Part shown: positions 1 to 38,005 of the stretch, piece after piece
Layout of the letters: the number at the start of each line of letters is the position of its first letter
Position numbering within the stretch: the stretch's first letter is position 1
Source: Naegleria gruberi
Taxonomy: Eukaryota
Strand: one strand, 5' to 3'
DNA: 64,000 nt
NCBI GenBank assembly: GCA_000004985.1
Contig: GG738856.1
Notes under the pieces: model-generated
What the model was told of the DNA's origin: nothing
Seen by the model: the letters and a program-made list of their open reading frames with translations, nothing else
Database searches by the model: none
Position numbers and translations under genes: made by a program

Positions 1-560
1 TTTGGTGATGAAGAAGCCAAATTGATAAGTGAAATGAAACAATTAACATCACTTGATATTTCTGGCAATCGAATTGGTGATGAAGGAGCCAAATATCTAA
101 GTGAAATGAAACAGTTGATATCACTCAATATTGGTGAAAATGAAATTGGTGATGAAGGAGCCAAATTGATAAGTGAAACCAGACAATTAGCATCACTTAA
201 TATTTGTTTCACTCAAATTGGTATAGAAGAAGCCAAATTGATAAGTGAAATGAGACAATTAACATCACTTAATATTTCTGACAATCGAATTTGTGTAGAA
301 GGAGCCAAATGGATAAGTGAAATGAGACAATTAACATCACTTGATATTTCTGGTAATCGAATTGGTGATGAAGGAGCCAAAACCATAAGTGAAATGAAAC
401 AATTAACATCACTTGATATTTCTTACAATCGAATTGGTGATGAAGGAGCCAAATTCATAAGTGAAATGAAACAGTTGATATCACTCAATATTCGTGGCAA
501 TCGAATTGGTGATGAAGGAGTCAAATATATAAGTGAAATGAAACAATTAACATCACTTAC
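1..560. repeat. 72-bp tandem coding repeat (one LRR unit per copy)
   Basis: The motif agtgaaatgaaacaattaacatcacttgatatttctggcaatcgaattggtgatgaaggagccaaa recurs with a 72-nt period and small substitutions. Confidence 0.6.
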
Positions 561-579
561 ATATAAGGGATTAAATTGA
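1..579 (+). CDS. Leucine-rich repeat protein (ribonuclease-inhibitor-type LRR), 5'-partial
   Basis: Frame 1 is open from base 1 to TGA 577-579. About eight 24-aa units ISEMKQLTSLDISGNRIGDEGAK occur, the same unit as in the F-box/LRR genes further along. Confidence 0.7.
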   Translation, partial: FGDEEAKLISEMKQLTSLDISGNRIGDEGAKYLSEMKQLISLNIGENEIGDEGAKLISETRQLASLNICFTQIGIEEAKLISEMRQLTSLNISDNRICVEGAKWISEMRQLTSLDISGNRIGDEGAKTISEMKQLTSLDISYNRIGDEGAKFISEMKQLISLNIRGNRIGDEGVKYISEMKQLTSLTYKGLN

Positions 580-1309: not shown

Positions 1310-1383
1310 GCCTTCCTAGCTCAGTTGGCAGTAGCGCTGTCCTAGTAAGACAGAGGTCTTGGGTTCGATTCCCAAGGGAGGCA
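1310..1383 (+). tRNA. tRNA-Thr (anticodon AGT)
   Basis: Cloverleaf: acceptor GCCTTCC/GGGAGGC; anticodon stem CTGTC/GACAG with loop CTAGTAA; T-arm TTGGG-TTCGATT-CCCAA; discriminator A. Confidence 0.85.
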
Positions 1384-1440: not shown

Positions 1441-3075
1441 TCAATTATTTGAGTTTTGATAAAAACGTTCTCTAAGTGCTTTGAGAATGGCTTCAGCTCC
1501 TTCATGTAGAATTTCTTTAGAAATTTCGTCTCCATTTTCCCACTTACATTTATCCAAACCAAAAAAGGAAACATTAATCAATTCACAATACTCAACTGGA
1601 ATATTCTCCAAACATGGATTTTCAGCAATATTTAACATTCTTAAATATTTGAGTTTTGACAATTCTTTTGGAAGGTATTTGACATTATTTCTATAAAGAG
1701 AAATTGAAGCCAATTCACTAATTTCGGATAATTCCATTGGAAGGGTTTCGATTTGATTTTTATCAAACCAAAGAGCTCCCATTTGTTTACAATGACTCAA
1801 TTCAGGCGGAACTTGTGTTAACTTATTATTCATGATGAATAATTCATTCAAATTAAGTAAGGAGCAAATTTCTATTGGAAATTCAGATATTTGATTATTG
1901 TTCAAGTTGAGTCGAGTAAGTTTTTTCAAAATTGATAATCCATTGACATGTGTCAGTAAGTTATTGTCAAGATTTAAACTGGATATGAATGTAAAATCCA
2001 AAGTTTGAGTCAATTCTTTTGGAATTTCCAATAATTGTAAACTTTTCAATTCAATAGTGGAACCTCCTTCATTCAAAATCTTTTCCACTTTCATTTCCAT
2101 CCAATTTCCGTCATTATTCAGACTATTATCGTAAAGATTCTCCCATTGATTATTATCTTCCTGATATCGTTCTCCTTTAAATGCTCTTCCACGATCGTGA
2201 GAGCCACGACTTTCCCAAAACCCTTTTTCATTTTCCTTTGAAAATTTGAGTCCACATAAGAATTTACATCCTTTCCAGCCAAATAGTTGAGGAATCATGA
2301 GACGAATGTAACCATGCTCTTTGGAAATGAATTCTTCATTATATTTGAGAGCTAGAAATGAATCTGGTGTGTCCACGTCCTCTCTGTGGACATTCACAAC
2401 ATAACCATCAATTCCTGTTTGAATGAGAAATTTCCAGTCTGGATCTGGTTTTAGATAATTGATAATGGATTGAAAGGAAAGACCTTCCATGTGCATGTCC
2501 ATAACACTCCATGTGGTTACACAATGTAAATCAATTGTATATTTGGATAATGGGATAGATTCAAGTAATTCTGTGAGTGTGATTGTCTTGATCGGATGAT
2601 CATCTCCAAGGATTATTTCAAGTTCCCATGAGTTAATATCCATTTCTGGATGATACCCCAAATCGAGGACAGGCCACTTTTTAACTATTTTTTGGCCTTT
2701 TGGAAGTTTACTATTATCTTCTTCATCGAAAATTTGATAGTTTCCAGTGGTTTTAAAAGTACTTTGTCTTATTCTTTCAAGCTTTTCAATGTGAGATTCG
2801 TCTAATTTTAATTGTCTTTTTGCTTCGTTTACTGTTTTGATTTCCGAAATATTCTTTTGATCAGTGATTTTCTTTGTTACTTGATTCTTGGGTGACGATA
2901 TTTCTCTAGTTCTGCAAATATAAAAAGCCACCATTGATCCAAATATTATTAATGATGAAAATAATGGATTAGATTCAACTGGCAATATTGCAATGGTAAC
3001 GAAAACAAGACAGGCAAAAAATAGAAAATCAAGAGCTTGTGTGTTCATTGTATTTTTTTGATAAAAGTTCATCAA
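1441..3075 (-). CDS. Membrane-anchored MsrP/YedY-like molybdopterin oxidoreductase domain fused to C-terminal leucine-rich repeats
   Basis: The 544-aa ORF has N-terminal hydrophobic segments. The central region carries HCVTTWS, GYIRLMIPQLFGWKGCKFL and FWESRG, which resemble the sulfite-oxidase-family Mo domain of MsrP (CVEGWS, PxRLxxP, KYGFKxxK). The C-terminus has about six LxxLxLxxNxL repeats. Confidence 0.5.
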   Translation of the reverse strand: MMNFYQKNTMNTQALDFLFFACLVFVTIAILPVESNPLFSSLIIFGSMVAFYICRTREISSPKNQVTKKITDQKNISEIKTVNEAKRQLKLDESHIEKLERIRQSTFKTTGNYQIFDEEDNSKLPKGQKIVKKWPVLDLGYHPEMDINSWELEIILGDDHPIKTITLTELLESIPLSKYTIDLHCVTTWSVMDMHMEGLSFQSIINYLKPDPDWKFLIQTGIDGYVVNVHREDVDTPDSFLALKYNEEFISKEHGYIRLMIPQLFGWKGCKFLCGLKFSKENEKGFWESRGSHDRGRAFKGERYQEDNNQWENLYDNSLNNDGNWMEMKVEKILNEGGSTIELKSLQLLEIPKELTQTLDFTFISSLNLDNNLLTHVNGLSILKKLTRLNLNNNQISEFPIEICSLLNLNELFIMNNKLTQVPPELSHCKQMGALWFDKNQIETLPMELSEISELASISLYRNNVKYLPKELSKLKYLRMLNIAENPCLENIPVEYCELINVSFFGLDKCKWENGDEISKEILHEGAEAILKALRERFYQNSNN

Positions 3076-3081
3076 TATTTA

Positions 3082-6000
3082 TTACATCATCAATACAGCA
3101 ACCAAGGCCAAAATGAGCATCAAAGCGTTAACAGCAACATTAGAACTTGCATTAACTTTGGTACTCTTCACTGGAGTTACAGTTGAAGGTTTTGGAGTTG
3201 TTGAAGAGCCTGGTGTAACAGTGGTTTGAGAAGTAATGATATAAGTACCAGTGCTTGAAACAGAAGCAGTGATAGTACCGTCGTTGTTCGTAGTTAAGGT
3301 GCATCCAGAGGCAGTTTCATACGTGTTAGTAACAGTATTGAGTACCTTACATGTGTTGACAGTTTCCATCAAAGTTCTTGATTTCTTTGTGAGTTCAAAG
3401 ACCAAATCAGCAATAGAAGAAGAATTAGAAACAGTGACAGCAGTTCCATCAACCAACTTGAAATCAATAGCCTTAGTAATAGTATTATCAACACCAGTAA
3501 CATCAATAACTTTAGCCATAACATTGACAGTCTTGAGAGAAGCAATTTGACTCAATTGAGCAAACTTGGAAGATAACTTGATCTTATTGTTACCAAGAAT
3601 CTTTTCAGAGAGGGAGTTCAAGGTAGCAATGTTAACCTTACGAGTAAGAGTTGTTACACCACCAGCATTAACAATGGTAGATGGCAAGTCAGCAATAGTG
3701 TCCTTAACAGACAAAGTTGCCAAATTGGTATAAACAGTGTTAATGTTTGCAAGGTCAACCTTACTGAAAACTCTCTTTCTTTGTTGACCTTTTTGAATAA
3801 CTTCAAGGAATTTGTCAGCAGATTTCTTTACATTGTCAATCATTTCACTTCCAAGTTCGATGCCGTTAGTGTTAACATTTCCTGTAGTATTTGCGAGACT
3901 GTCAACAACCTTGGCTGTAGTACTATCAGCAACCATTCCAGAAGAAACAGAAGTACTGAATGATGAAGCAAAAGACAGACCATTTTCAGCAGAGCTCTTG
4001 GAAACAGAAATACTATCAGTTTTGGCTTGTTGGTCTAGGAAGGCATCTGCAATAGCAGAAGCAGCTTGCTTGATAGAATCAATTTGTGAAGAGTTCAACT
4101 TGTTAATATCAACACTACCAATAACAGACATGGCAGATGAAGCAGCAGACAATGTGACAGTACCCTTAGAGGTGGCCATTGAAGACAAGGCAGAAACAGA
4201 TTCTTCAGCAGATGGCTTGGTAATAGTAACATCAAAAGTAGCATATGAAGAAGCACCCAAAAAGTCGTACACAACAGCCTTAACAGTCAAAATATTACCA
4301 GATGTTGGTGCTGGGAGTGAGATACTTGCGGATGGTTCTTCAGTTCTGTCAGTAAGAGGGTTCCACTTGTTACCCTTGTTATCGTAGAACATGAATTGAT
4401 AAGTCAATGGTGTTTGAGGATCAGACCAACCATTACCACACTTGATATCGAAAATATCGCTCAAAGCTTTACCAGTGATTGGATAGACATCGAATTGACC
4501 TTGAGTTGGTGGAGAGTTGACAGTGAATGTAACCTTAGCAGAACCTTCCTTGACACCATCAGTGACAGCCAAAGAAACAGTATATGAGTCACCTGGAGAA
4601 AGCAAGCTGGATGGAATCTTCAAATAGCTTGAAGTGGTGGAGGTATTAGTGTTGAGTTCAAAGTTTTCAGCAGACCAAGTAAATGATGGGCTTGATAATT
4701 GAACACCCCATGTAGTATAGGTCAAATACAAGTCCTTAGATGGATCAACAACAGTCAAGTCAACATTTGAAGTAATTGAAACTTTGAGAAGAGTATCCTT
4801 TGCTTGCTCAAGGAGAGTAACAAACAAGTAACGAGTAGCACCTCTTGATCCCTTAGTTACAGTTGCAGTGAATTGGTATGCTCCAGCAGTGAATTGAGTG
4901 CTTGTGAATGAAGAAACATATCCAGGTTGAATGGTACAGTCTTGGCCATTAGTCAAATCATAACAAGTGATGGATACATTTTGGGCATCATTGGTATTAC
5001 TTGGATCAACAACCTTAATATTAAATGAAATTGGATCTTGATTAGATTGAATAACATTGTCAATGGAATAGGAGAGGATCAATGGTTGAGCAATAGCAGT
5101 TACCTTGATTGAGGTTGAGGATGATTCTGCTCCATTAGCTGTGGCAGTGACTGTAAAGTAGTAATCACCTTCTTGATTAATTTCAGTAAATCCCTTACCA
5201 AGGACCAGCATTCCATTCTTTGTTTTTGGTGTAACAATGGATGCAGATTGAGAAGCATCTAAAGTATAACTGTATTGAACTTGACCATTTCCGTTGTAAC
5301 AGGATGGGAATTTGATAATTGGATTAATAGTTGAAACAGAACCAATCATAAACTTGCTTTCAGCACCTTGCTTAATGAACACAGCTGGAACAGCATTGGC
5401 AATAACTGTGAAAGAGAAGGACTTGGTATCCGATTTACCGAAACTACTGGTGACAGTAACAGAAACAATGTAAGTACCAGCAGACAAACCGAGCTCGTTC
5501 AATTTGATTCTCAATCCACCTCGAGTTTCACTCTTGATAGCAGTTGAGAGCTTATCTTCATCTGAACTTGATGGTCCCGAAGCAACAGACCAGGAGAAAG
5601 TTAATGGACGACGATCCAAAGAAACTGAACCATAAGCATTCAAGAACAAATCATCGCATGTTGAAACAACGCTCTTGTCACCAATCAAGGAAACAGTTGG
5701 TGAAGCAGCAATGAATTCACCACTTTGAACTTCTGCATTAGTAGCTTCCTTACTACCTGGATATTTCAATGGTCTAAGAACATCTGAGGTAGTAACAGCA
5801 GCATTAGGTCCCAAAATTACTTCCAAAGTGCTCTTGTCAGTATTGAAAACACATTGAGATCTATCACCAAGCTTTAAAACATCTTGGAAGATTTGATCAC
5901 ATGGAATTGGTCTCTTGAGGGTGGAGTAAACAGTTGCAACAAGTCTGTCACCGTTGGCATTGAACTTGAGAGAGGATGTATCAAATTTATAGTCACAATT

Positions 6001-7864
6001 ATCACCAGCATATTGGTTGAGACAAACACCTGGAGCACATTTAGCAGCTGGGTCAACATTTGGACTATTACAAGTGCAAGAGCCATCATAGGTACAAGTT
6101 CCTCTACCATTGCAAGTGGATGGGTTACAAGAAATTGAACAATTTGCACCAACAAATCCACCAATACACTTTTCACAATATTCACCAGCATAATTTCCAT
6201 CACATTTACATTTCAAACCTTGACATTTACCCTTGCCACCACAAGTACCAGCATCTGTACACACTGGTTCTTTACAATCATCTCCCTTAAATGCAGGACT
6301 ACAACTAGAACAATTACGAGAACCAGTCCAAGCAGAATCACATTGACAAGTATCTGGACCAACACACTTACCGTGTTGAGAACAAGCATATTGACTATTT
6401 CTATCAACACCATGGCATGAGAATGATTGACAAGATGATCCTTCGAAACCAGCCAAGCATTTACAAGCATTTGGACCTTGGCATGAACCCTTACCATTAC
6501 ATACTGATCTATCAGTAGCTGGAGTATTGTAACATATTGGAATTTCACAATTTGCACCAGTGTATCCAGCAATACACTTCAAACAGTAGGTGCTAGGATC
6601 AAAATTACCTCTACATTGACAAACGTCGACATCAGTACATTTACCATTGAAGGAACAACCACCAGCTTGTTCAGTCTTACCATTACAAGTTTTGATATCG
6701 CATTCAATTCCTGAATAACCAGCTTTACAATTACAAGTATTTGGAGCAACACATTTACCTTTGCCACCACAAACTTGAGCCTCATCTTGAGGTTTACCGA
6801 AACAAGTTGNNNNNNNNNNNNNNNNNNNNNNNNNNNNNNNNNNNNNNNNNNNNNNNNNNCAGTTCCATTCACACAGCACCATTCTTACATTGAATATTAG
6901 CACATGGATCAACTGGACCTGGTGGAGGATTTGGATTGCTTCCATTATTATTAGTATTATTATTACCTGGATTTGGATTAGGTGTTGGACTACTTCCATT
7001 ATTATTATTATTATTAGGATTTGGATTTGGGTTGCTTCCATTGTTGTTGGTGTTATTATTACCTGGATTTGGATTAACAACTTGATCACAATGAGGACCA
7101 GTGAAACCTTGTTGACATTCACATGTTCCATTCACACAAGTACCATTACCACAGTGAATATTAGCACATGGATCAACTGGACCTGGTGGAGGATTTGGAT
7201 TGCTTCCATTGTTATTAGTATTATTATTACCTGGATTAGGATTAGGTGTTGGACTACTTTCATTATTGTTATTAGTATTATTATTAGGATTTGGATTTGG
7301 ATTAGGGTTAGGATTTGGGTTGCTTCCATTGTTATTGGTATTATTATTACCTGGATTTGGATTAACAACTTGATCACAATGAGGACCAGTGAAACCTTGT
7401 TGGCATTCACATGTTCCATTCACACAAGTACCATTACCACATTGAACATTGGCACATGGATCAACTGGACCTGGTGGAGGATTTGGATTACTGTTGTTAT
7501 TATTTCCAAGAACTACTTCACAATGAACACCATCAAAACCTTGATTACATTCGCACATACCAGAGGTCATGTTACAAACACCATGACCGCAATCAGAATT
7601 ATTAGAGCACAAAGGTGCACAGAGAGTATCATTATAATAGTAGCTAAGACTTCCATCGCAGCCACATGTGCCATTAAGACACACCAAATTTACACCATTC
7701 ATAGTTTGATTGAGTACATTATCATAGAAAGGATAATTACACTCAGAATCATTTTGGCACCCTTTCACTACAAAGCCATTAAGCAACAGCAGTGTAGAAA
7801 ACAGGGACACCAAAGCAAATACAAAAGTTAGCCTTGTTGTCTGCATATTTTTTCTTGAGGTCAT
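3082..7864 (-). CDS. Giant secreted/surface glycoprotein with EGF-like repeats, N/P-rich linkers, a Ser/Thr-rich region and a hydrophobic C-terminus; interrupted by an assembly gap
   Basis: A signal peptide (MTSRKNMQTTRLTFVFALVSLFSTLLLLNG) sits at 7864. Repeated CANIQCGNGTCVNGTCECQQGFTGPHC EGF modules follow. After the gap there are more EGF/tenascin-type Cys repeats, then about 1000 aa of S/T-rich beta-rich sequence, ending in ...NVAVNALMLILALVAVLMM (TM or GPI signal). The two ORF-track pieces differ in frame because the gap length is unknown. Confidence 0.6.
6810..6859. other. Assembly gap (50 N)
   Basis: A run of N lies inside the EGF-repeat gene. Confidence 0.95.
6861..7500. repeat. ~243-bp tandem repeat (about 2.6 copies) encoding EGF module + GNNNTNNNGSNPNP linker
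   Basis: Near-identical blocks start near 6890, 7133 and 7375 (ccattcacacaagtaccattaccaca...ggatttggattgcttccatt). The array abuts the N-gap. Confidence 0.7.
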
Positions 7865-9045: not shown

Positions 9046-9990
9046 CTAGCAAAGAATACACTTTTTATCTTTCTTTCGATGGCTAGTATGAGTTTCAAAG
9101 CTTTTTATAACTTGAACGAGTCTGTGATATCTAATTAGAATACTGAAGGCATTGGAAACTGTTTCATTGTGTGCAGCGGATGCCATGATAATGGGACAAT
9201 ACTTTAGTTTCGGATTTCTTGTGAAAATTTCATAAACATCCTTCAAGTTAAATTGATATGCTGAAGAATCAACATCAACCTTATTCACAACAATGACATA
9301 GGATTTGTACATTTTCTTCTCCTTAAAATTTGATTTTAGAACCTCCTCTAGCTCTGTAAGAGATTGTCTATCATTTATCGAACAAACTAACATGAAACAC
9401 TCTCCAAATTTATATTCCATTCCAAAAGAGAAAGAATCCTCAATAACTAATCTCGTAGGATAATCATCAACAATGGCATTCTTCCATGTAGTTTCCTCAA
9501 TAGTTGGATCTATCTTTACTCCATCAAAATAGTTCATGACATATTGAACTGTCAGAGCTGTCTTTCCAACATTTGCTATTCCACCAACGAATATTTTGAA
9601 ATCAGCTTGTCCGTAATAATTCTTATTATTTGATTCCTTTTCAAGTTGCAAACTCTTATAATTCTCCTTAAACTTGTGCATTAATTGAGCGTATCGACTT
9701 CTGTTACTCATTGTTGATGGCCATGGTATTTCTTCATCTTGTTTTGCCAATACTTCCTCTGTCCATTCCCGATGAGAGAGTCTTGCCCAACCCATCACTA
9801 AATACCTCCAATAACCATCCTGTAAATATTGATCAATTGGAGAGTCTTTCTTGAATGAGAGAGCCATCGAACAAGCTGCCTTACTTCTCATAGTTTCACC
9901 TTCCTTGTATTTAAAATTCAAAGGCTCTTGATTCAGACCACAATAATTCAAAATGATAATAATTAATTCATCGGGCAATCTGTTCGTCAT
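9046..9990 (-). CDS. F-box-like + Ras-like small GTPase with C-terminal CaaX (CILC)
   Basis: The N-terminus LPDELIIIILNYCGL is F-box-like. The GTPase has a P-loop GGIANVGKT, a G4 motif VVNKVD and a G5 motif SAAH. It ends in KKCILC. Confidence 0.65.
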   Translation of the reverse strand: MTNRLPDELIIIILNYCGLNQEPLNFKYKEGETMRSKAACSMALSFKKDSPIDQYLQDGYWRYLVMGWARLSHREWTEEVLAKQDEEIPWPSTMSNRSRYAQLMHKFKENYKSLQLEKESNNKNYYGQADFKIFVGGIANVGKTALTVQYVMNYFDGVKIDPTIEETTWKNAIVDDYPTRLVIEDSFSFGMEYKFGECFMLVCSINDRQSLTELEEVLKSNFKEKKMYKSYVIVVNKVDVDSSAYQFNLKDVYEIFTRNPKLKYCPIIMASAAHNETVSNAFSILIRYHRLVQVIKSFETHTSHRKKDKKCILC

Positions 9991-11527: not shown

Positions 11528-12547
11528 TTAATGTAAGAGACGAGTCAAGTGTTTCATTCCCTTCACATACTTCACTCCTTCTTCCCCTATTCTGTTGAAA
11601 CTAATATCAAGAAGTCTCAATTGTTTCATTTCACTAATAGATTTGGCACCTTCAGGACCAATTCTATTTCCATCAATTCTAAGATCAGTCAAGTTTGGCA
11701 TTTGACTAATAGCCTTTGCTCCCTCATCTCCAATTTCATTATAACAAATATTGAGTGTGGTTAATTTATCTAGTTCACTTATAAAAATTGCTCCTTCTGA
11801 CCTTAGAGAATTAGTATAGGCTTTCAGATAAGTCAATTGCTTCATTTGGCTAATGGATTTTGCACCTTCAGCACCCAAATTATTTCCACAAATGTCAAGT
11901 TTAGTTAAATTTTTCATTTCACTGATACTTTTGATTCCTTCTTGATCTATATTACTGGAACTGATATTGAGGAACGTTAAATGATCCATGCCACTAATTG
12001 ATTTTGCACCTTCTGCGCAGAGATAATTTGCACTAATATCAAGTTCAGTCAATTTAGTCATTCCACTAATTAATTTTGCACCTTCTGTACCAATTTGACT
12101 CGAGTCAATGTATAGACTAGTTAATTGCTTGAATTCACTGACGATCTTTGCTCCTTGCAACCCAATTTCATTTCCGCCAACACAAAGTTTAGTCAAATTT
12201 CGCATTAGGCCAACAAGCTCCAAATACTTAATATCAAACACTTCCTCTACGGAAATAAATTTCAGAGATGTAAAACTCTCCAAAAATTGACTTTTCCTAA
12301 CAGCATTGAATTTGCTATCGGTAATGTTTTTGAATTCAATTGAAAGTTTTGCACGTTCATTGATCACATTTAAAAATTGCTTTGAAATGAGGGAACACTT
12401 GTACAAGATGAATTTTGGATTTTCAATATAGGATATTATTTCAAAGCAAACATCATCAGAAAATATTTCCTTCTTGCCGAGTTCGGTTTGCTGAGACAAA
12501 GGGGTTTCAACAAGTTCACTCATTTTTTTTGAGATGTCAAATTTCAT
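11528..12547 (-). CDS. F-box-like + ribonuclease-inhibitor-type LRR protein
   Basis: The N-terminus is ...EIFSDDVCFEIISYIENPKFILYKCSLISKQF. It is followed by about ten GNEIGxEGAKxIS LRR units. Confidence 0.7.
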   Translation of the reverse strand: MKFDISKKMSELVETPLSQQTELGKKEIFSDDVCFEIISYIENPKFILYKCSLISKQFLNVINERAKLSIEFKNITDSKFNAVRKSQFLESFTSLKFISVEEVFDIKYLELVGLMRNLTKLCVGGNEIGLQGAKIVSEFKQLTSLYIDSSQIGTEGAKLISGMTKLTELDISANYLCAEGAKSISGMDHLTFLNISSSNIDQEGIKSISEMKNLTKLDICGNNLGAEGAKSISQMKQLTYLKAYTNSLRSEGAIFISELDKLTTLNICYNEIGDEGAKAISQMPNLTDLRIDGNRIGPEGAKSISEMKQLRLLDISFNRIGEEGVKYVKGMKHLTRLLH

Positions 12548-18225: not shown

Positions 18226-19577
18226 TACCTTTCGAATATTCATTTTAGAAATTATTTAAAAAAAATAATCAAATACGAATCACCATTCGCCTCCAATTCC
18301 ACCAATTCCACAATATTCTCTGATGATATTTGTTATGAAATTCTATCCTATTTCCATGAGGAAAATGATGGAAAATTTATTCTACTAAATTGTTCGTTAA
18401 TTTGCAAGCAGTGGATGATGAGTGTGAAGAAATTCGGAAAGATTTCAATTAATATTAGAAATAGACTTTCGGATTCATTGATAGAAACAATCAAGAGAAA
18501 TCAATTTTTGGACTGTTTTGTGAAATTTGGAATTTATTCGAAAGATTTTGTAAAGTTTCATGAAATAATTACAATGATGAAGAATTTAAAAAGTCTTTGT
18601 ATTGGAAATGATTCTATTGGAGAGGAGGATTTAAAATTTATTGGAGAAATGAATCATTTAACTGAACTTGAATTGTGTGAATGTTTGACCGGAGATAAAG
18701 ATATTAGACCAATTAGTAGAATGTCTCAATTGACTAGATTAAATATTAGTAAGAATGTAAAGTATCATTTAAGCGATATCATTGAATTGAAGCAATTAAA
18801 AATACTAGAAATTGGAGAAAATTTCATAGGAGATGAACAAGTTGAACTACTTTCCAATCAATTGAAACAATTGACCATTTTACGAATTAATAATAACTTG
18901 ATTCATTCGCAAGGGGCTGAACATTTGAGTAAATCGGATCAATTGACTGAATTAGATTTAAGTGGAAATGCTTTAAATTATACAATTGGCTATGAAATTG
19001 CAAAAATTGAACAATTGAAAACTCTTCACCTTAGCAAACTTTCAATATATCAAATGGGATCAAGACGTCCAGTTGGATCAAGATTGAGTTCACAATTTGG
19101 ACAATTATTTCAATTGACCAGTCTTAGTATAAGTAATACTAATATTGGAGATGAGGGAGCCAAAGAAATTAGTAATTTAACACAATTGACTGAACTATAT
19201 GTACATGGAGCTGGAATTGGAAATACAGGAGCCAGATCATTAAGTGTTTTACATCAATTGGCCAAACTAGATATCAGTACTAATCAAATTGGAGATGAGG
19301 GAGTTAGATTATTCAAACAATTATCAAAATTAACAGAACTTGTTGTGTTTAATAATAGAATAGGAGATGTTGGAGCACAACTAATAAGTGAAATTCCTCA
19401 ATTGACCAATCTTGATGTTAATAACAATCAAATTGGAAATGAAGGGGCAAAATCAATGGAAATCAAATTGATGATCAAGGAGCTAAATTATTATGTGAAA
19501 TGAATCAAAGAAAAATTGAACTTTATGGAAATAATATTAGTAATGATTTCAATTATTTAATTGAATTATTGAGCTGA
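18226..19577 (+). CDS. F-box-like + RI-type LRR protein, apparently disrupted (no in-frame ATG ahead of the F-box; +1 frameshift near 19455)
   Basis: The frame opens at 18226 with IFSDDICYEILSYFHEENDGKFILLNCSLICKQW, but the first ATG is at 18412. The LRR units run to ...NNNQIGNEGAKS. The sequence then continues only in the +1 frame as NGNQIDDQGAKLLCEMNQRKIELYGNNISNDFNYLIELLS (stop 19575-19577). Confidence 0.5.
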
Positions 19578-19717: not shown

Positions 19718-20743
19718 TCATTGAATGAAACATTTTCCAATGGATGATGATTCCAAATCAATATCTGAATCTGGATTTCTAAATGCTATTGATTTGATAA
19801 GTAGTTCTAAAATTTTATCAAAATCATATCCTCTCACTGTTGATGATTCCATATAAGAAATTGCTCCAATTTTCTTTGCAAAATCAATGCCGTCCTTTGG
19901 CGAGACAGTTAGTGTATTTCTATTTCTATAATTCCTCAAATCAGTCATACATCCCATTACTACATATGGAGTTTGAGGAGAGAAGTGAGAAATTAAAGGT
20001 AAAATCTCCTTTTCAATTGTAATAAAATCAGGACACTGATCAATGGTTGGAATATTGATTTGTTGTTGATCATCAAAATTATGAAATGTGCTAAAACACA
20101 AACAATACAGATCCACATCCAATAATGCATTATCTACTTCTGAATTGTTATCTTCACCGGGAAATCTGCTATATTCACATAATTTAACAGTTGCAATTTT
20201 AAGATTATTCAATTTTGATGAGTATTGAAATTGATATTCAGAATTGGAATCCCACGTGTTATGAATTAATGGAATAGTCAACAAATTCTTTTGAATTATA
20301 CTTGATTTCCCACAAGATTTTGATCCAATAAACGTCACTTTAAAAATTGGCAATTTTCTTCTAATTTTCTTCATATTCAACACATCCTGATCCGAAACAT
20401 TCTTTCTAATAAACTCCTCCGATCTAAAACATGATAAATTCGATGAAAATTTCATTTCTGAAATTAAATATTCAAATTTCTTCCTTTCTGAACTAAAATT
20501 TTTCTTCCCAACTTGATCGCACAATAATGAATATTTCATCATGGTTAATAAATTAATTTTCCTCTCATTCATCAATTGTAAATTCTGCTCCGAAAGAAAT
20601 CTTTCATTGACACATTGTGTTAGGACAAAATTCGAATTAATTATTCGGAAGGACAAGATTTCTTCAAAGGGAAGAAAATTCAAAATAGAAAAAATAATTT
20701 CAGAGGGAAGAGATGAAAGGTGGCTTGTTAGGTTTTGTTGCAT
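19718..20743 (-). CDS. F-box-like + Rho-like small GTPase with C-terminal CaaX (CFIQ)
   Basis: The N-terminus is LPSEIIFSILNFLPFEEILSFRIINSNF. The GTPase has a P-loop FIGSKSCGKSS, CLCFSTF, MGCMTDLRN and ESSTVRGYDFDKI. It ends in GKCFIQ. Confidence 0.6.
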   Translation of the reverse strand: MQQNLTSHLSSLPSEIIFSILNFLPFEEILSFRIINSNFVLTQCVNERFLSEQNLQLMNERKINLLTMMKYSLLCDQVGKKNFSSERKKFEYLISEMKFSSNLSCFRSEEFIRKNVSDQDVLNMKKIRRKLPIFKVTFIGSKSCGKSSIIQKNLLTIPLIHNTWDSNSEYQFQYSSKLNNLKIATVKLCEYSRFPGEDNNSEVDNALLDVDLYCLCFSTFHNFDDQQQINIPTIDQCPDFITIEKEILPLISHFSPQTPYVVMGCMTDLRNYRNRNTLTVSPKDGIDFAKKIGAISYMESSTVRGYDFDKILELLIKSIAFRNPDSDIDLESSSIGKCFIQ

Positions 20744-20814: not shown

Positions 20815-20887
20815 GAGACTGTAGCTCAGATGGGAGAGTATTCGTTAACCCAACGAATGGTCTTAGGTTCAAATCCTAACTGTTTCT
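20815..20887 (+). tRNA. tRNA-like element with atypical anticodon loop (possible pseudo-tRNA)
   Basis: The D-arm is GCTC-AGATGGGA-GAGT and the T-arm is TTAGG-TTCAAAT-CCTAA. The acceptor GAGACTG/CTGTTTC has one mismatch. The anticodon stem TTCGT/ACGAA encloses loop TAACCCA, which has A at position 33 and no standard anticodon assignment. Confidence 0.35.
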
Positions 20888-20888
20888 C

Positions 20889-29121: not shown

Positions 29122-31149
29122 TTACCACTTCTTTTTGGGAACTCTCTTTTCAATGACATTTCTGAAAAATGTTTTTTGAGATCTGAGCAATAATTTCAAA
29201 TTTAACAAGACTGAAATGGCTCCAGATTTGGAAATATTAGATCCATCCACAGTAAATGATTGTAATTCTTGCATGAATTGACTAGTTGCAATGTATCCAA
29301 TTCCTTCATCAGTTATTTGATTGATTTTATAACATCTGAGACTTGTCAAAACGCATCCAATTTGTGAAATTAATTTCAATGAAGTATCGGTGAGAGATGT
29401 GTTTTCTGAAAGTGATAATGCAATTAAATTGACTGGTTGGGAAGAAGCCAAATATTGAATTCCTTCATCTGTTATTTGATTATTAGATAAATGTAAGATT
29501 TTCAATTTGGTAGTCAATGCAGATGATTCGAATCCTTTCATTCCCTTATCTCCAATTTTGTTATTGCTAACATTCAATGATGTCAAATTAACTAAATACG
29601 GACTAGTTAAAATTTCAATAAAATCCTGATCATTCAAATTGCAAAATGAAATATTCAACCGAGTCAAATTTAAAAATGCTGGATTTCTTGTAATTGAGGT
29701 GATTCTTCCATTTAGGTCCATATTATTTTCTTGAGAATACCAAGTAAAAAGTTCTCCTAAACCTAATTGTTTCAAATTGTGAAGGTATGGACTCTCAATG
29801 ACATCCTTTATCAATTCGAAATTACAGGAGAAACAAATACTTGTTAAATTTGACATGGTTGGTTGCGGAATTAATTTAGAGCTCATATCTGGCAATCTAA
29901 CGTACAATCTGTTCCTCTTGGTGAGATTGGTTAACTTGAGGAATGGGCTTTCGAATAGAATATTTAAATTCAATGAGATCCATTCAGCAGTTGGATACAC
30001 CTCCAAATAGGTCAGAGATGCAAAAGTTGGACAATTAGCAATATATCCCAAACATTCATCGTCCAAATTGTTATGACACAGATCCAGTACTTTCAAATTA
30101 GTTAAATAACAAGGCTTCTCAGTGAGAATTTTGAGTTTCTCTGAACCTATTCCAGAACATCCCACATTTAAAATTTCCAAATTACCCAAATATGGACTTG
30201 CAAATATTTGCGCATTTACTCCATTATCATATAAATTCAATATTCTCAATTTTGAAAATACTGGACTATTTGCAATGTGTAAAGATCCTTCCACAGAGAT
30301 ACAATTAAATTGCAAGTTTAAATTTGTTAAATTTGACAAATGTGTGCTCGTGGATAAATGTCTAAGGCCTTCATCTCCGATATAGTTATGCTGCAGATTG
30401 AGTGTTGTTAAATTCCTCATTTCAATATTATTCGAAAGCTCTATTGCGAATGCATTTCCAATATCACAATATCTCAAATTCAAACTTTTCAAATTTTTTA
30501 AATAGGGGCTTTTTACCAATTTCTGATAAGATTCGTCATTTGTTCTATACTCCATCATGAACGCACGTCTAGGACGATTACTAGATGCATTTGTGGAATT
30601 GTACAAATTGAGTTCTGTTAAATTTTTGAAATTTTCACTTTCTGTTAAAACTTCAAAACTTTCCTTTCCCAAATTATTAAATCTCAAATTCAAACTTTTC
30701 AAATTCTTGATAAATTCACTCTTTGAAAGAGCATTAATTCCTTCAAAATTAATTCCATTACTTCTCAAATTCAAATGTTGCAATTGACCAAAATCGGCAC
30801 AATTTGCAAGTAATTTCACTCCCTTATTTCCAATATAATTGAACGAAACATTCAAACTAGTAATATTCCTTCTCCAATTCACTTCAAAATCATCTTCCAT
30901 TGTCTCTGTGAATTCTTCATCATTGGCATTCGAATTGAAAAATAAATTCAACTTGTGTGGATGAATTTTGTGAATAGAAAAATCAAGATTCAATGCAAAT
31001 CTACTTGCTGCTTGTCTCCAATCCTTGGAAACAAGTGAAAATCGTTTGATAATTTGCAAATGATCAATAAATGTCATGATGTGAAAAATCATGTCCAGTG
31101 GAAGAATCACTGTTTGGTCAACAATATTCGGAGGAGGATTCATTTGCAT
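29122..31149 (-). CDS. F-box-like + RI-type LRR protein (675 aa)
   Basis: The N-terminus HIMTFIDHLQIIKRFSLVSKDWRQAASRF is followed by more than 15 LRR units of the form NLRxNxIGxEGxxxLS. Confidence 0.7.
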   Translation of the reverse strand: MQMNPPPNIVDQTVILPLDMIFHIMTFIDHLQIIKRFSLVSKDWRQAASRFALNLDFSIHKIHPHKLNLFFNSNANDEEFTETMEDDFEVNWRRNITSLNVSFNYIGNKGVKLLANCADFGQLQHLNLRSNGINFEGINALSKSEFIKNLKSLNLRFNNLGKESFEVLTESENFKNLTELNLYNSTNASSNRPRRAFMMEYRTNDESYQKLVKSPYLKNLKSLNLRYCDIGNAFAIELSNNIEMRNLTTLNLQHNYIGDEGLRHLSTSTHLSNLTNLNLQFNCISVEGSLHIANSPVFSKLRILNLYDNGVNAQIFASPYLGNLEILNVGCSGIGSEKLKILTEKPCYLTNLKVLDLCHNNLDDECLGYIANCPTFASLTYLEVYPTAEWISLNLNILFESPFLKLTNLTKRNRLYVRLPDMSSKLIPQPTMSNLTSICFSCNFELIKDVIESPYLHNLKQLGLGELFTWYSQENNMDLNGRITSITRNPAFLNLTRLNISFCNLNDQDFIEILTSPYLVNLTSLNVSNNKIGDKGMKGFESSALTTKLKILHLSNNQITDEGIQYLASSQPVNLIALSLSENTSLTDTSLKLISQIGCVLTSLRCYKINQITDEGIGYIATSQFMQELQSFTVDGSNISKSGAISVLLNLKLLLRSQKTFFRNVIEKRVPKKKW

Positions 31150-31662: not shown

Positions 31663-32716
31663 ATGGAAACAATCAAGTGTGTACTTGTTGGTGCGAATAA
31701 TGTTGGTAAAACGTGTAGTTTAATTTCCTATACGACCAATTATTTCCCAGAAGATTACGTTCCAACAGTTTTTGATAATTACAGTGCTAATGTTATGGTT
31801 GATGGCAAGCCTTTTTCATTGGGTTTGTGGGATACTGGTATGTATATTGGTTATGATCATGATCATGATCATCTTGAATCGATGATCGGGTGATTATTTA
31901 CAATGAATTTAATTATTTAATTGATGATGATCTTTTAATTGGAAAATAATTTTAGCTGGACAAGATGAATACGACAGATTGAGACCATTAAGTTATCCAC
32001 AAACTGACATTTTCCTGGTCATGTTTGATGTTGGTGATCGTTCTACATTGGATAGTGCACTTGGTAAATTTGTTAATGAAATTCAACACCATTGTCCAAA
32101 TGTTCCAAAATTGTTAGTTGCTAATAAGATTGATTTGGATAAGAGACAGGTCAGTAGAGAAGAAGGTGAAAGATCAAGTAGAGTGAAGGGATTTGATGGT
32201 TATTTTGAAGTTTCTGCTCGTACTCAACAAGGATTGAAGAATATATTTGATGAAGCTTGTAGAATTGCAAGTAGTAGAAAGGCTGATAGAAAGCCAGTTT
32301 CTTATGATTCAGATGCTTCATCTGAAGCTGAAGAAGAAACTGAATGGGATAAGAAGGCAAGAGAAGTTGAAGATCCATTCCCAGAAAAATACAAATTTGG
32401 TATTTATTTAATTGATCAATATGGAAAGACTGTAGAGGATAAATTCATTTTGAAAACAGAAGTTGCAAGCTATTGGAAATTACTTGTTGCACTGGTTAAG
32501 AAATTGAGAGATTTTGGTGGAAAGAAAGATGAAGAAGAGGAAGAAGAGGAAGAAAAGAAACTCGTTGCAAACTACTTTGACGATAATCAATTTAAAATTT
32601 ACATTGAAGATCCAGATTTTAAGGATTTCTTCTTATTGGATTCTTTTGAATTATTGAAAGAAGTTGGTGAAAAGTCCAATAATAATGTCAAGTTGCAATT
32701 GGTTGGTAGTTGGTAA
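31663..32716 (+). CDS. Rho-family GTPase (Rac/Cdc42-like) with long acidic C-terminal extension, no CaaX; 2 exons
   Basis: Exon 1 (31663-31837) encodes [17 protein letters not shown]...LGLWDT. A 118-nt intron (GTATGT...TTTTAG) follows. Exon 2 (31956-32716) encodes [22 protein letters not shown]...LVANKIDL. About 150 extra residues follow, including a poly-E tract, ending in VGSW. Confidence 0.75.
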
Positions 32717-36814: not shown

Positions 36815-38005
36815 TCACCTAAATTTTTCAATGGCAAGAAATTCATAATTGTTATTATCTAGAAGCTTTCTCAATTCCACACTTATTGAAGGGTTATTTG
36901 AAATGGCCAAAAGCTTTAGCCATGTCATGTCTAGTATTGAAGTAACTCCCTGATCACCAACAGTGCAATAATTGACAAAAAGAGAGTGCAGTTTTTTCAT
37001 TCTACTTATAAATTCAATTCCAATATCACCAATAGGATTGTGATTAATGCTGAGAATTTTCAATTTGGCAAGCTTACTCAATACTTTCGCTCCAGAAGGA
37101 CCAAAATCATTACAATCAGCATGTAAGCATGTCAAGTTTTTCAATTGGCCAACAATTTGTGCTCCAGCATCCCCAATATTATTATAACTAACATCAAGAA
37201 AAGTCAAATTATAAAGTTTTTCCATAAATAATGATCCCTCAATACCAATATCATTGCTTCTAATGTCCAGTTTTGTTAAATTAGTCAATTTACCTATGAA
37301 ACTCCTCCTTTACTCCAATCTTGTAGCCTAGAATATTCAAATCTGTCAAGTTTGTTAGCTGGCTCAAACATTGAGCTACCTCAGCACCAATATANNNNNN
37401 NNNNNNNNNNNNNNNNNNNNNNNNNNNNNNNNNNNNNNNNNNNNNNNNNNNNNNNNNNNNNNNNNNNNNNNNNNNNNNNNNNNNNNNNNNNNNNNNNNNN
37501 NNNNNNNNNNNNNNNNNNNNNNNNNNNNNNNNNNNNNNNNNNNNNNNNNNNNNNNNNNNNNNNNNNNNNNNNNNNNNNNNNNNNNNNNNNNNNNNNTCAC
37601 CAAACGACTATTTACAATGTCCAACTCTTTTAATTGTTGCAAATCGCCAATCCTTCGGACGAGTGCCATATCATTAATTCCACTAAACGAAACTCTAACT
37701 AAATTAGGCATCATAATCATTGCCTCCAAAACATTCACATTTCCACTATTTAAATTTACACATGTAATCCTCTCCAAAAATTGACTCTGTTTTAACAATT
37801 CGGCCCGTCCACCATCAAATTCCCTTTTAAAATCAAGCGATAATCGAATTGTTTGCTTGATAATTCTTTTCCATTGTTTGGAAATCAATACGCAATTTTT
37901 CAAAATAAAAAACGAGTCGAGATGAGTCAAAATTTCATAGCAAACATCATCAGGAAATTCGCAGCCGCCGCCGATGCGAGCAGGAAGTAGAAGGCTTTCA
38001 ATCAT
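36815..38005 (-). CDS. F-box-like + RI-type LRR protein spanning a 203-N gap, with one frameshift near 37300
   Basis: The N-terminus is MIESLLLPARIGGGCEFPDDVCYEILTHLDSFFILKNCVLISKQWKRII. The C-terminal ORF 36815-37288 carries LRR units. Between them ...ILGYKIGVKEEFHR-stop continues in the +1 frame as IGKLTNLTKLDIRSNDIG. Confidence 0.55.
37394..37596. other. Assembly gap (203 N)
   Basis: A run of N lies inside the LRR gene. Confidence 0.95.

What the first reader, a model, noticed from the sequence alone, without database searches (positions are those of the whole stretch)
1441..3075. MsrP/YedY-type molybdopterin domain on a membrane anchor fused to leucine-rich repeats
The central 200 aa carry the diagnostic features of the sulfite-oxidase-family Mo domain as found in bacterial MsrP (HCVTTWS ~ CVEGWS, GYIRLMIPQLFGWKGCKFL ~ PVRLVVPWKYGFKSIK). 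This domain sits between two N-terminal hydrophobic helices and a C-terminal LRR array. MsrP repairs oxidised methionines in the bacterial periplasm. Coupling such a catalytic domain to an LRR protein-binding module in a eukaryote is unusual and suggests targeted redox repair or modification of a specific partner.
Basis: partly seen in the sequence, partly recalled or inferred. Interest (0 to 1): 0.65.

Follow-up and report, generated by a model that had tools for sequence, protein, structure and literature searches.

The report
Membrane-anchored molybdenum-enzyme domain fused to LRRs
This Naegleria gruberi gene encodes a membrane-tethered protein that joins a sulfite-oxidase-fold molybdenum-cofactor domain to leucine-rich repeats, a rare layout seen here only in a few amoebae and belonging to an unstudied eukaryotic branch of this enzyme family, not to bacterial MsrP.

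Summary
Window 1441-3072 (- strand) is one intronless 543-aa gene. It has two N-terminal hydrophobic helices, a disordered linker, a PF00174 molybdopterin-oxidoreductase domain (E=1e-20) with the Mo-ligand cysteine (Cys184, HCVTTWS), and eight leucine-rich repeats with a helical cap. The same collinear layout recurs in Naegleria lovaniensis, the amoebozoan Soliformovum irregulare (a transcript) and three environmental sequences, so it is not a gene-model artefact.

The "MsrP/YedY-type" label is only partly right. The fold and the CVxxWS motif resemble YedY. However, the NCBIfam MsrP model scores 32-36 bits against a 207-bit cut-off. There is no Tat signal and no MsrQ gene among the ORFs scanned. 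By profile and by structure the domain is about as far from YedY as from sulfite oxidases and nitrate reductase.

It belongs to the small, uncharacterised "sulfite oxidase-like oxidoreductase" clade. Within that clade it sits in or at the base of a eukaryotic subclade (algae, a chytrid, a labyrinthulid) whose members are often membrane-anchored.

Most likely it is a cytosol-facing, membrane-tethered Moco oxidoreductase whose LRRs dock a protein partner. Substrate, electron donor and Moco loading are untested. I rate it a new variant of a known kind, of moderate interest.

The parts
1441..3072 (-). Complete intronless CDS of the TM-Mo-LRR protein (543 aa plus TGA stop at 1441-1443). ATG at 3072-3070; an alternative ATG lies at 3048.
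   Evidence: The N. lovaniensis orthologue P0001 is collinear over 92% of the first 334 aa, and its gene is also intronless.
2977..3033 (-). Hydrophobic helix 1 (aa 14-32, LDFLFFACLVFVTIAILPV).
   Evidence: Kyte-Doolittle mean 2.54. AlphaFold helix 10-29. Conserved in N. lovaniensis.
2911..2964 (-). Hydrophobic helix 2 (aa 37-54, LFSSLIIFGSMVAFYIC). It is followed by a basic stretch (RTRE...KNQVTKK), and the short acidic/Pro turn ESNP separates the two helices.
   Evidence: Other fused homologues have a single N-terminal TM followed by KKK/KPKK.
2713..2907 (-). Low-confidence, lysine-rich linker (aa 56-120) with one predicted helix (92-109).
   Evidence: pLDDT 28-47. Only 35% identical to N. 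lovaniensis and 11-19% to the other fused homologues.
2164..2712 (-). SUOX-fold molybdopterin-binding domain (aa 121-303).
   Evidence: PF00174 E=1e-20. AlphaFold model of aa 118-310 has pLDDT 92. Foldseek probability 1.0 to YedY, nitrate reductase, sulfite oxidase and SorA. 70% identical to N. lovaniensis and 49-52% to the other fused proteins.
2521..2523 (-). TGT codon of Cys184, the predicted Mo ligand in HCVTTWS.
   Evidence: Read directly. Invariant in alignments A1, A3 and A4. Aligns to Cys102 of YedY. In the model it is the last residue of the first strand of a long beta-hairpin (A3 residue 67; strands 58-67 and 71-82), which matches the SUOX description in PMC11194511.
2068..2163 (-). 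Poorly conserved inter-domain linker (aa 304-335).
   Evidence: pLDDT 36-61. 5-20% identity to homologues.
1504..2067 (-). Eight leucine-rich repeats (aa 336-523) with a period of about 23 residues; the last repeat is degenerate.
   Evidence: Pfam LRR_4, LRR_8 and LRR_14. Strands at 339, 365, 387, 410, 433, 456, 479 and 503. Repeat register. PDB matches to LRRD1, SHOC2, LRRC8 and RSU1. No LRRNT or LRRCT cap hit.
1444..1503 (-). C-terminal helical cap (aa 524-543; the model helix spans 519-541).
   Evidence: The G(A/T)xA(I/V)(L/M) motif is conserved in all fused homologues.

Best explanation
Shown: this is a real, intronless N. gruberi gene for a modular protein. An N-terminal hydrophobic hairpin (a single TM helix in other species) comes first. 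A flexible basic linker then leads to a molybdenum-cofactor domain of the sulfite-oxidase (SUOX) fold, followed by eight leucine-rich repeats and a helical cap. The Mo domain belongs to the small, stand-alone 'sulfite oxidase-like oxidoreductase' clade, about 200 aa with no dimerisation or haem domain. It is neither MsrP nor a true sulfite oxidase.

Inferred:
1. The catalytic and LRR parts face the cytosol. Basic residues follow the anchor. The LRRs are of the SHOC2/LRRD1/RSU1 type, which is cytosolic in other eukaryotes (my own knowledge), and they lack extracellular caps.
2. Cys184 ligates Mo of Moco, and the domain performs an oxygen-atom-transfer redox reaction. Reduction of an S- or N-oxide is most likely, fed by a separate flavoprotein or cytochrome, by analogy with mARC.
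3. The LRR solenoid docks a specific protein. That protein could be the substrate, the electron donor or a scaffold, which would localise the chemistry at one membrane surface.
For: - Domain calls: PF00174 at E=1e-20 plus LRR families.
- Conserved collinear architecture in N. lovaniensis P0001, Soliformovum irregulare P0002 (a transcript), the environmental eukaryote-like contigs P0003 and P0004, and the fragment P0009.
- Purifying pattern: the Mo domain (49-70% identity) and LRRs (37-63%) are conserved, while the linkers are not (5-35%).
- Cys184 and about 25 other positions are invariant across fused and stand-alone relatives.
- A confident SUOX-fold model (pLDDT 92) matches YedY, nitrate reductase, sulfite oxidase and SorA with probability 1.0. 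The Cys sits at the end of the long hairpin that defines Moco-binding SUOX proteins.
- Membrane anchoring recurs. 19 of 44 full-length stand-alone relatives in the eukaryotic clade carry an N-terminal hydrophobic anchor.
- Reductive direction: prokaryotic relatives occur fused to FAD_binding_6+NAD_binding_1 (P0092) or to Pyr_redox_3 (P0149). The closest prokaryotic relative, P0160, has an FNR-like flavoprotein gene one gene away.
- Moco use in the genus is suggested by a sulfite oxidase detected in the N. fowleri proteome (PMC11964265).
Against: - No biochemical data exist for any member of this clade, as far as the library searches showed.
- Moco biosynthesis genes of N. gruberi could not be examined.
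- Flavoprotein fusions or neighbours are rare. An FNR-like neighbour appears in 3 of 82 prokaryotic loci, and no neighbour is conserved overall. The reductase direction is therefore weakly supported.
- Topology rests on the positive-inside rule and LRR type only.
- The full-length model has pTM 0.46, so the relative placement of the Mo and LRR domains is unknown.
- No N. gruberi or N. fowleri protein with this domain was returned, so expression in N. gruberi is unverified.
Confidence: 0.55

Rival explanations
1. One reading: an MsrP/YedY-type protein methionine-sulfoxide reductase of bacterial origin, whose LRR targets it to repair or modify one specific partner protein.
For: - YedY is nominally the best PDB match by sequence profile (67.5 bits) and by Foldseek (E=2e-11).
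- It shares the CVxxWS motif and the single-domain build.
- MsrP acts on protein-bound Met-O (PMC12525009 abstract), and an LRR is a protein-binding module.
Against: - The NCBIfam MsrP equivalog scores 32-36 bits against a cut-off of 207.
- Identity to YedY is 18%.
- SorA, sulfite oxidase and nitrate reductase score almost the same as YedY.
- There is no Tat signal, and no MsrQ-like gene among the window ORFs scanned.
- Glu of CVEAWS is Thr here.
- The domain groups with eukaryotic proteins, not with MsrP.
Confidence: 0.15
2. A non-catalytic pterin/Moco-binding sensor or scaffold, comparable to PruR. The SUOX fold would bind a pterin and the LRR would relay that state to a signalling partner at the membrane.
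For: - PruR proteins have the same fold and are recovered as weaker matches (34 bits; TM-score 0.5).
- PruR regulates a partner protein by binding it (PMC11194511).
- LRRs of the SHOC2 type are signalling scaffolds (my own knowledge).
Against: - PruR lacks the Mo-ligand Cys (Trp instead) and has a truncated hairpin and cleft.
- Here the Cys is invariant and the hairpin is full length.
- The whole 169-position PF00174 profile is matched.
Confidence: 0.12
3. A genuine sulfite-oxidising enzyme for sulfite detoxification, anchored to a membrane.
For: - PF00174 family membership.
- NCBI names the bacterial relatives 'sulfite oxidase-like oxidoreductase'.
- SorA and plant sulfite oxidase score nearly as well as YedY.
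Against: - SoxC, SorA and SorT equivalog models score 13-54 bits against cut-offs of 420-600, for this protein and for its relatives.
- There is no dimerisation domain and no haem or cytochrome domain.
- The motif after the Cys is VTTWS, not the Arg-containing motif of sulfite oxidisers (the latter from my own knowledge).
- Relatives are fused to NAD(P)H-flavin reductase modules.
Confidence: 0.08
4. Annotation or assembly artefact: two unrelated genes, or an untranslated ORF extension behind the upstream gene, read as one protein; or a decaying pseudogene.
For: - The ATG lies only 7 nt after the TAA TAA stop of the upstream gene, in the same frame.
- No N. gruberi protein with this domain was returned.
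- The scaffold has gaps.
Against: - The 1,632-nt ORF is uninterrupted.
- The same order of anchor, Mo domain and LRR occurs in five other independent sequences, including a transcriptome ORF.
- The N-terminal helices are conserved with N. lovaniensis, where the upstream neighbour is a different gene 309 nt away.
- All catalytic-motif positions are intact.
Confidence: 0.03

Closest known systems
Small prokaryotic 'sulfite oxidase-like oxidoreductase' proteins of about 200-220 aa (COG2041-type; YuiH-like by my recollection). Examples here are P0160, P0008, P0005 and the Neorhizobium proteins P0188/P0189.
   Same: Same single-domain SUOX fold, with the HCVT(T/G/S)WS Cys motif and the HG..R..P.LY.WK..K motif. 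Identity to the Mo domain is 35-50%.
   Different: They are soluble, stand-alone proteins with no TM anchor and no LRR. They end in a ...H..GDPW.EERY tail, where the fused and eukaryotic proteins have ...H.RGR...ER(W/Y). No function was found in the library.
Eukaryotic stand-alone relatives, about 250-350 aa: Gonapodya prolifera KXS19169, Tribonema minus, Tetraselmis striata, Pavlovales sp. and Aplanochytrium.
   Same: Same Mo-domain subclade. They share a one-residue-shorter HG..RL segment and the H.RGR motif. 19 of the 44 full-length members scored carry an N-terminal hydrophobic anchor followed by a basic linker. In the NJ tree the fused proteins lie inside or at the base of this clade.
   Different: No LRR array. 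Identity is only 33-46%. All are annotated merely as 'molybdopterin-binding oxidoreductase'.
E. coli MsrP (YedY), PDB 1XDQ/1XDY.
   Same: SUOX fold without a dimerisation domain, and a Cys ligand in CVxxWS. It is nominally the best solved-structure match.
   Different: MsrP is periplasmic, Tat-exported and fed by the membrane flavocytochrome MsrQ (PMC4228395 and PMC12525009 abstracts). Identity is 18%, and the equivalog score is far below cut-off.
Eukaryotic sulfite oxidase and nitrate reductase Mo domains (PDB 1SOX, 1OGP, 2BIH).
   Same: Same fold, with TM-scores of 0.63-0.72.
   Different: Those enzymes carry a dimerisation domain and haem/FAD domains. Identity is 15-18%.
mARC (mitochondrial amidoxime reducing component).
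   Same: Functional analogy only: a eukaryotic Moco reductase. By my own knowledge it is held on a membrane by an N-terminal anchor with the catalytic domain in the cytosol, and it is fed by cytochrome b5 and its reductase.
   Different: MOSC-domain family with no sequence relationship. mARC is counted among the five known eukaryotic Mo enzymes (PMC10637980 abstract); this clade is not.
PruR pterin-binding proteins (PDB 7KOU, 7KOM).
   Same: Degenerate SUOX fold that acts through protein-protein contact.
   Different: PruR has no Mo-ligand Cys and a truncated cleft, and it is periplasmic. The match is much weaker.
SHOC2 / LRRD1 / RSU1 / LRRC8-type LRR domains.
   Same: 23-residue LxxLxLxxNxLxxLPxxL repeats matching at E=1e-59 to 1e-16.
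   Different: Only eight repeats, and they are attached to a redox domain.

Membership tests
SUOX (sulfite oxidase) fold / Pfam PF00174 Oxidored_molyb | Score above the Pfam gathering threshold over the whole domain. | tested here: met
   74.5 bits against 24; profile positions 4-169 of 169.
SUOX (sulfite oxidase) fold / Pfam PF00174 Oxidored_molyb | Conserved cysteine that ligates Mo, at the end of a long beta-hairpin (PMC11194511). | tested here: met
   Cys184 is invariant and aligns to YedY Cys102. It is the last residue of strand 58-67 in the hairpin 58-67/71-82 of the model (definition).
SUOX (sulfite oxidase) fold / Pfam PF00174 Oxidored_molyb | Three-dimensional fold of the Moco-binding domain. 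| tested here: met
   AlphaFold pLDDT 92. Foldseek probability 1.0 and TM-score 0.59-0.72 to YedY, nitrate reductase, sulfite oxidase, SorA, SorT and SoxC. This is a prediction, not a solved structure.
SUOX (sulfite oxidase) fold / Pfam PF00174 Oxidored_molyb | The protein actually binds Moco, and the organism makes Moco. | not testable with these tools
   Indirect only. A sulfite oxidase was detected in the N. fowleri proteome, and MogA-MoeA fusions are reported in Discoba. Naegleria is absent from the Mo-utilisation survey tables that are held.
MsrP (YedY) methionine-sulfoxide reductase catalytic subunit | NCBIfam equivalog NF003767 at or above its cut-off of 207 bits. | tested here: not met
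   32 bits for the full protein and 35.8 bits for the Mo domain.
MsrP (YedY) methionine-sulfoxide reductase catalytic subunit | Twin-arginine (Tat) signal peptide and extracytoplasmic location. | tested here: not met
   The N-terminus MNFYQKNTMNTQALDFLFF... has no RR motif, and two hydrophobic helices are followed by basic residues. Location itself was not tested.
MsrP (YedY) methionine-sulfoxide reductase catalytic subunit | Partner MsrQ/YedZ ferric-reductase-like membrane protein encoded alongside. | tested here: not met
   No such domain in 31 window ORFs scanned against Pfam, including this gene, nor in the precomputed Pfam hits listed for called genes in loci L001-L003. A gene elsewhere in the genome is not excluded.
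MsrP (YedY) methionine-sulfoxide reductase catalytic subunit | Active-site motif RCVEAWS. | tested here: inconclusive
   C, V, W and S are kept, but Glu is replaced by Thr and Arg by His (HCVTTWS).
Sulfite dehydrogenases/oxidases (SorA, SorT, SoxC, eukaryotic SO) | Equivalog-level score, and presence of the C-terminal dimerisation domain. | tested here: not met
   SoxC scores 12.9-15.3 bits against 420, and there are no SorA or SorT hits for this protein. No Mo-co_dimer Pfam hit. The domain ends after about 190 aa.
Small 'sulfite oxidase-like oxidoreductase' clade (about 200 aa, single domain) | Closest relatives are members of this clade, and the domain limits coincide. | tested here: met
   P0005-P0008, P0160 and L004 match end-to-end at 35-50% identity and E=1e-29 to 1e-65. 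NCBI's name for the bacterial members is seen. No curated model of this clade was available to score against.
Leucine-rich repeat proteins | Tandem LRR units forming a solenoid. | tested here: met
   LRR_4 scores 41.6 bits against 27. Eight beta-strand/helix units with a 23-residue period and pLDDT 85-95. PDB matches at E=1e-59 to 1e-37.

The most novel reading that the evidence does not exclude
The protein would be the LRR-bearing member of a sixth, so far unrecognised family of eukaryotic molybdenum enzymes: small SUOX-fold reductases held on the cytosolic face of a membrane. In amoebae the fused LRR would recruit a specific protein whose oxidised residue (for example methionine sulfoxide) the Mo centre reduces. 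That would make it a substrate-targeted Moco protein-repair enzyme.
Probability: 0.2. Interest if true: 0.75.

Novelty: new variant of a known kind. Interest (0 to 1): 0.5.

Why it matters
Reviews count five eukaryotic molybdenum enzymes: sulfite oxidase, nitrate reductase, xanthine oxidoreductase, aldehyde oxidase and mARC (PMC10637980 and PMC6321594 abstracts).

This gene belongs to a further eukaryotic clade of SUOX-fold proteins that is often membrane-anchored. It occurs in algae, a chytrid, a labyrinthulid and amoebae, and I found no experimental work on it.

The amoebal form is a natural domain fusion. It says the Mo domain works together with a protein-binding module, which gives a concrete handle (the LRR partner) for finding the substrate or electron donor of the whole clade.

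A large survey of molybdoprotein domain fusions did not list an LRR fusion. The gene also appears to be missing from the public N. gruberi protein set.

Tried and rejected
Lookups and collection scans:
- Exact-product look-ups of three window ORFs found nothing on record. The species was instead identified with a homology search.
- A viral-contig scan for the Mo domain gave no confirmed relative, so a giant-virus vector is not supported.
- The AFDB50 fold library was unavailable.

Literature:
- Searches for YuiH, SUOX 'group 3', and Naegleria with Moco, molybdopterin or molybdenum utilisation gave nothing usable.
- The 2011 Zhang/Rump/Gladyshev review is not held.
- The 2018 survey's supplementary tables do not include Heterolobosea.

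Gene context:
- I tested whether an FNR-like flavoprotein is a conserved neighbour of prokaryotic relatives. It appears in only 3 of 82 loci, and no other neighbour is conserved. I therefore rejected conserved gene context as support for the reductase direction. Only a few fusions and neighbours remain as evidence.
- I considered stop-codon read-through from the upstream REJ/EGF gene, which is in the same frame. I rejected it because there are two consecutive TAA codons and the N. lovaniensis orthologue has a different upstream neighbour.

Phylogeny:
- I considered a recent bacterial transfer into Naegleria. I rejected it because no prokaryotic genome match exceeds 48% identity and the fused proteins group with eukaryotic sequences.
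- dN/dS against N. lovaniensis was not attempted because synonymous sites are saturated at about 55% protein identity.
Full report
**1. What is in the sequence**

On the minus strand an uninterrupted ORF runs from 3075 to 1441. The TTG at 3075 is only the first possible start after a stop. The first ATG is at 3072 and a second at 3048. Read from 3072, the product is 543 aa.

The window comes from Naegleria gruberi. The AtuA-like ORF at 53916-55721 is 100% identical over its full length to an NCBI "predicted protein [Naegleria gruberi]". GC content of about 33% and the many RNI-type LRR and Ras-family genes in the window fit that source.

**2. Domain content**

- Pfam finds PF00174 (Oxidored_molyb) at E=1e-20 and 74.5 bits (cut-off 24). 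The match covers aa 142-287 and essentially the whole profile.
- C-terminal to it, LRR_4 scores above its cut-off, and LRR_14 and LRR_8 score just below theirs. PDB sequence matches to LRRD1, SHOC2, Leptospira LIC LRR proteins, LRRC8 and RSU1 range from 1e-59 to 1e-16.
- Two hydrophobic segments, aa 14-32 and 37-54, are separated by the turn ESNP and followed by a basic stretch.
- An AlphaFold model of the whole protein gives the following layout (mean pLDDT 74.7). Helices lie at 10-29 and 36-55. A disordered linker runs to about residue 120. A well-defined beta-rich domain spans about 125-300, followed by a second short disordered linker. Eight strand/helix LRR units then run from 339 to 505 at pLDDT 85-95, ending in a terminal helix at 519-541.
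- The repeat register has a period of 23 residues.

**3. Is it one real gene?**

- A search with the first 334 aa returned N. lovaniensis XP_044541684 (P0001, 573 aa, 51% identity over 92% of the query). It has the same Pfam content, including LRRs.
- The same search returned three more proteins of 470-478 aa with PF00174 plus LRR. P0002 is a complete ORF from the transcriptome of the amoebozoan Soliformovum irregulare. P0003 and P0004 are from JGI metagenome contigs.
- The P0003 contig carries anoctamin, cNMP-binding and MAPEG genes. The P0004 contig carries protein-kinase genes. Both look eukaryotic.
- A fifth sequence, P0009, is a fragment with the C-terminal half of PF00174 followed by LRRs.
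- All align collinearly.
- Conservation follows the domain structure:

| Region | vs N. lovaniensis | vs the other fused proteins |
|---|---|---|
| Mo domain | 70% | 49-52% |
| LRRs | 63% | 37-39% |
| First linker (aa 56-120) | 35% | 11-19% |
| Second linker (aa 304-335) | 20% | 5-15% |

- The two N-terminal helices are 41% identical between the two Naegleria species. The other species have a single N-terminal TM helix followed by KKK or KPKK.
- The N. lovaniensis gene is also intronless. It has a different upstream neighbour, 309 nt away.

An artefact, a read-through product or a pseudogene is therefore very unlikely.

**4. What kind of Mo domain?**

- The Cys of HCVTTWS (Cys184, codon 2523-2521) is invariant in every alignment made. 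It aligns to Cys102 of E. coli YedY.
- A model of aa 118-310, built on 26 sequences, has pLDDT 92. Cys184 is the last residue of the first strand of a long beta-hairpin. This is the arrangement that the PruR paper gives as the hallmark of Moco-binding SUOX proteins, and that PruR itself has lost.
- Foldseek against the PDB gives probability 1.0 to all SUOX enzymes. TM-scores are nearly equal: YedY 0.67-0.71, nitrate reductase 0.69-0.72, chicken sulfite oxidase 0.64-0.70 and SorA 0.66-0.67, at 16-19% identity. PruR scores 0.5.
- A family profile scores YedY at 67.5 bits, SorA at 64 and plant sulfite oxidase at 62.
- NCBIfam's MsrP equivalog model gives 32-36 bits against a cut-off of 207. The SoxC, SorA and SorT models are even further from their cut-offs.

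The domain is thus a bona fide SUOX-fold Moco domain. It shares with YedY the lack of a dimerisation domain and the CVxxWS motif, but it is not an MsrP orthologue and not a sulfite dehydrogenase.

**5. Which clade, and where from?**

- A profile of the five fused Mo domains was searched against 1.84 billion representative proteins. It found 4,892 relatives at E<=1e-3.
- Scores fall sharply from the fused proteins (333-360 bits) to the next hit (218 bits).
- Most relatives are single-domain proteins of about 190-230 aa. NCBI names the bacterial ones "sulfite oxidase-like oxidoreductase" and IMG labels them with the generic COG name.
- A distinct set of 240-370-aa proteins shares two features with the fused proteins. 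One is an HG..RL segment that is one residue shorter than bacterial HGGPVRL. The other is an H.RGR...ERW tail in place of H..GDPW.EERY.
- Named members of that set are eukaryotic: Gonapodya prolifera, Tribonema minus, Tetraselmis striata, Pavlovales sp. and Aplanochytrium, plus EukProt/MMETSP transcripts.
- Of 44 full-length members, 19 have an N-terminal hydrophobic anchor.
- In a neighbour-joining tree of 169 sequences the fused proteins lie inside this eukaryotic group.
- Bootstrap support out of 200 was as follows. The two Naegleria sequences pair in 200. The fused proteins fall within a clade holding all named eukaryotes in 166, on a relaxed criterion. Monophyly of the four fused sequences kept in the tree appears in only 77.
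- The nearest prokaryotic sequences are about 208-aa proteins from uncultured groundwater organisms. These include P0160 at 49-50% identity and a Woesearchaeota MAG contig at 48%. Other prokaryotes are at 31-40%.
- NJ on one short domain is a weak method. The direction and age of any transfer are open, but a recent bacterial acquisition by Naegleria is not supported.
- No relative was found in viral contigs.

**6. How it probably works**

*Topology (inferred).* In the single-TM homologues the helix starts at residue 2-5 and is followed by a lysine cluster. In Naegleria two helices form a hairpin, again followed by basic residues. By the positive-inside rule both arrangements put the Mo-LRR part in the cytosol. 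The LRRs are of the SHOC2/LRRD1/RSU1/LRRC8 type. They carry no LRRNT or LRRCT cap and end in a helix, which agrees with a cytosolic location.

*Chemistry (inferred).* An intact Cys ligand and a fully matched, conserved domain argue for a catalytic Moco centre performing oxygen-atom transfer.

*Direction (weakly supported).* Some prokaryotic relatives are fused to an FNR-type FAD/NAD module (P0092) or to a Pyr_redox_3 flavoprotein (P0149). P0160 has an FNR-like gene one gene away, among DoxX, glutaredoxin and DsbA-like genes. Such links are rare, however: 3 of 82 loci, with no neighbour conserved overall.

*By analogy (my own knowledge).* mARC is a membrane-anchored, cytosol-facing Moco reductase served by cytochrome b5 and its reductase. 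I therefore favour a reductase fed by a separate donor.

*LRR role (inferred).* The LRR array is nearly as conserved as the catalytic domain across very distant amoebae, so it most likely binds a specific protein.

*Untested.* Which membrane, which substrate and which partner are all unknown. The full-length model (pTM 0.46) says nothing reliable about domain packing.

**7. Moco supply**

The window holds no such gene among the ORFs scanned, and the tools give no access to the rest of the genome.

Indirect evidence favours Moco use. A sulfite oxidase is detected in the N. fowleri proteome (PMC11964265). MogA-MoeA fusion proteins are reported for Discoba, while kinetoplastids, the other well-sampled Discoba, lack the trait. 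Strict conservation of the Cys and surrounding motifs in two Naegleria species points the same way.

**8. Comparison with what is known, and novelty**

- The parts (SUOX fold, LRR, TM anchor) are all known kinds.
- The combination is rare. Four representative entries among the best 150 of 1.84 billion carry it. I checked Pfam content for ten of the longer other hits and found only flavoprotein fusions or no extra domain. The large fusion survey of Peng et al. does not list it.
- The surrounding eukaryotic clade of small, often anchored SUOX proteins is not among the five recognised eukaryotic Mo enzymes. I found no experimental paper on it.
- I therefore classify the finding as a new variant of a known kind. 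It is a real and somewhat unusual architecture with unknown function, not a new type of system.
- Interest is moderate at 0.5. It would rise if the protein proved to be a Moco enzyme that acts on an LRR-recruited protein.

Noticed in passing
window 3070-3084: The ATG of the Mo-LRR gene (3072) lies 7 nt after the double stop TAA TAA (3084-3079) of the upstream 1,349-aa REJ/EGF-domain gene, in the same reading frame. The upstream gene's 3' end and this gene's promoter and 5' UTR must therefore overlap coding sequence. The N. lovaniensis orthologue has a 309-nt gap and a different neighbour.
   Followed up: partly
window 1441-3072: No N. gruberi protein containing this Mo domain was returned by the homology search, although a neighbouring N. 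gruberi protein was returned at 100% identity. The gene may be missing or mis-modelled in the public N. gruberi annotation. No N. fowleri orthologue was returned either.
   Followed up: partly
window 1310-1383 (+): A tRNA-Thr(AGT) gene lies 58 nt beyond the stop codon on the opposite strand, so the mRNA 3' end probably overlaps it antisense.
   Followed up: no
window 20815-20888 (+): ARAGORN calls a tRNA-Gly with anticodon ACC, which is unusual for glycine. The window holds seven tRNA genes in all.
   Followed up: no
L002 11813-13537 (-); L003 4434-5264 (+): A PF13640 2OG-Fe(II) oxygenase gene sits directly next to the Mo-LRR gene in N. lovaniensis and 1.7 kb from it on the environmental contig L003. 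The two are 33% identical over the domain. None was found in the N. gruberi window ORFs scanned, nor among the precomputed Pfam hits for L001, so this may be chance.
   Followed up: partly
L084 1549-6192 (= L085): The closest prokaryotic Mo-domain protein (P0160, 208 aa, 49-50% identical) lies on a groundwater contig next to ribosomal S7/S12 genes. It is surrounded by redox genes: DoxX, an FNR-like FAD/NAD flavoprotein, a glutaredoxin and a DsbA-like protein.
   Followed up: partly
P0024, P0039, P0054 (no locus): Eukaryote-type relatives that group next to the fused clade have the Trp of CVTxWS replaced (HCVTQAS, HCVTSAS, HCVTTCS). P0039 and P0054 carry several hydrophobic segments at both ends.
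   Followed up: no
window 51819-55721: A CoA-transferase family III gene (-) and an AtuA-family gene (+) lie next to each other. The best non-Naegleria AtuA matches are fungi and actinobacteria at 44-47% identity, which could reflect an old lateral acquisition.
   Followed up: no
window 6810-6859 and 37395-37596: Runs of N (50 and 202 bases) mark assembly gaps. The first interrupts the upstream REJ/EGF gene.
   Followed up: no
window 22-579, 11528-12547, 18415-19503, 29122-31149; 9046-9990, 19718-20743, 31979-32716: The window is rich in RNI-type LRR_6 proteins (one with an F-box) and Ras-family GTPase genes. These LRRs are of a different class from the repeats fused to the Mo domain.
   Followed up: no
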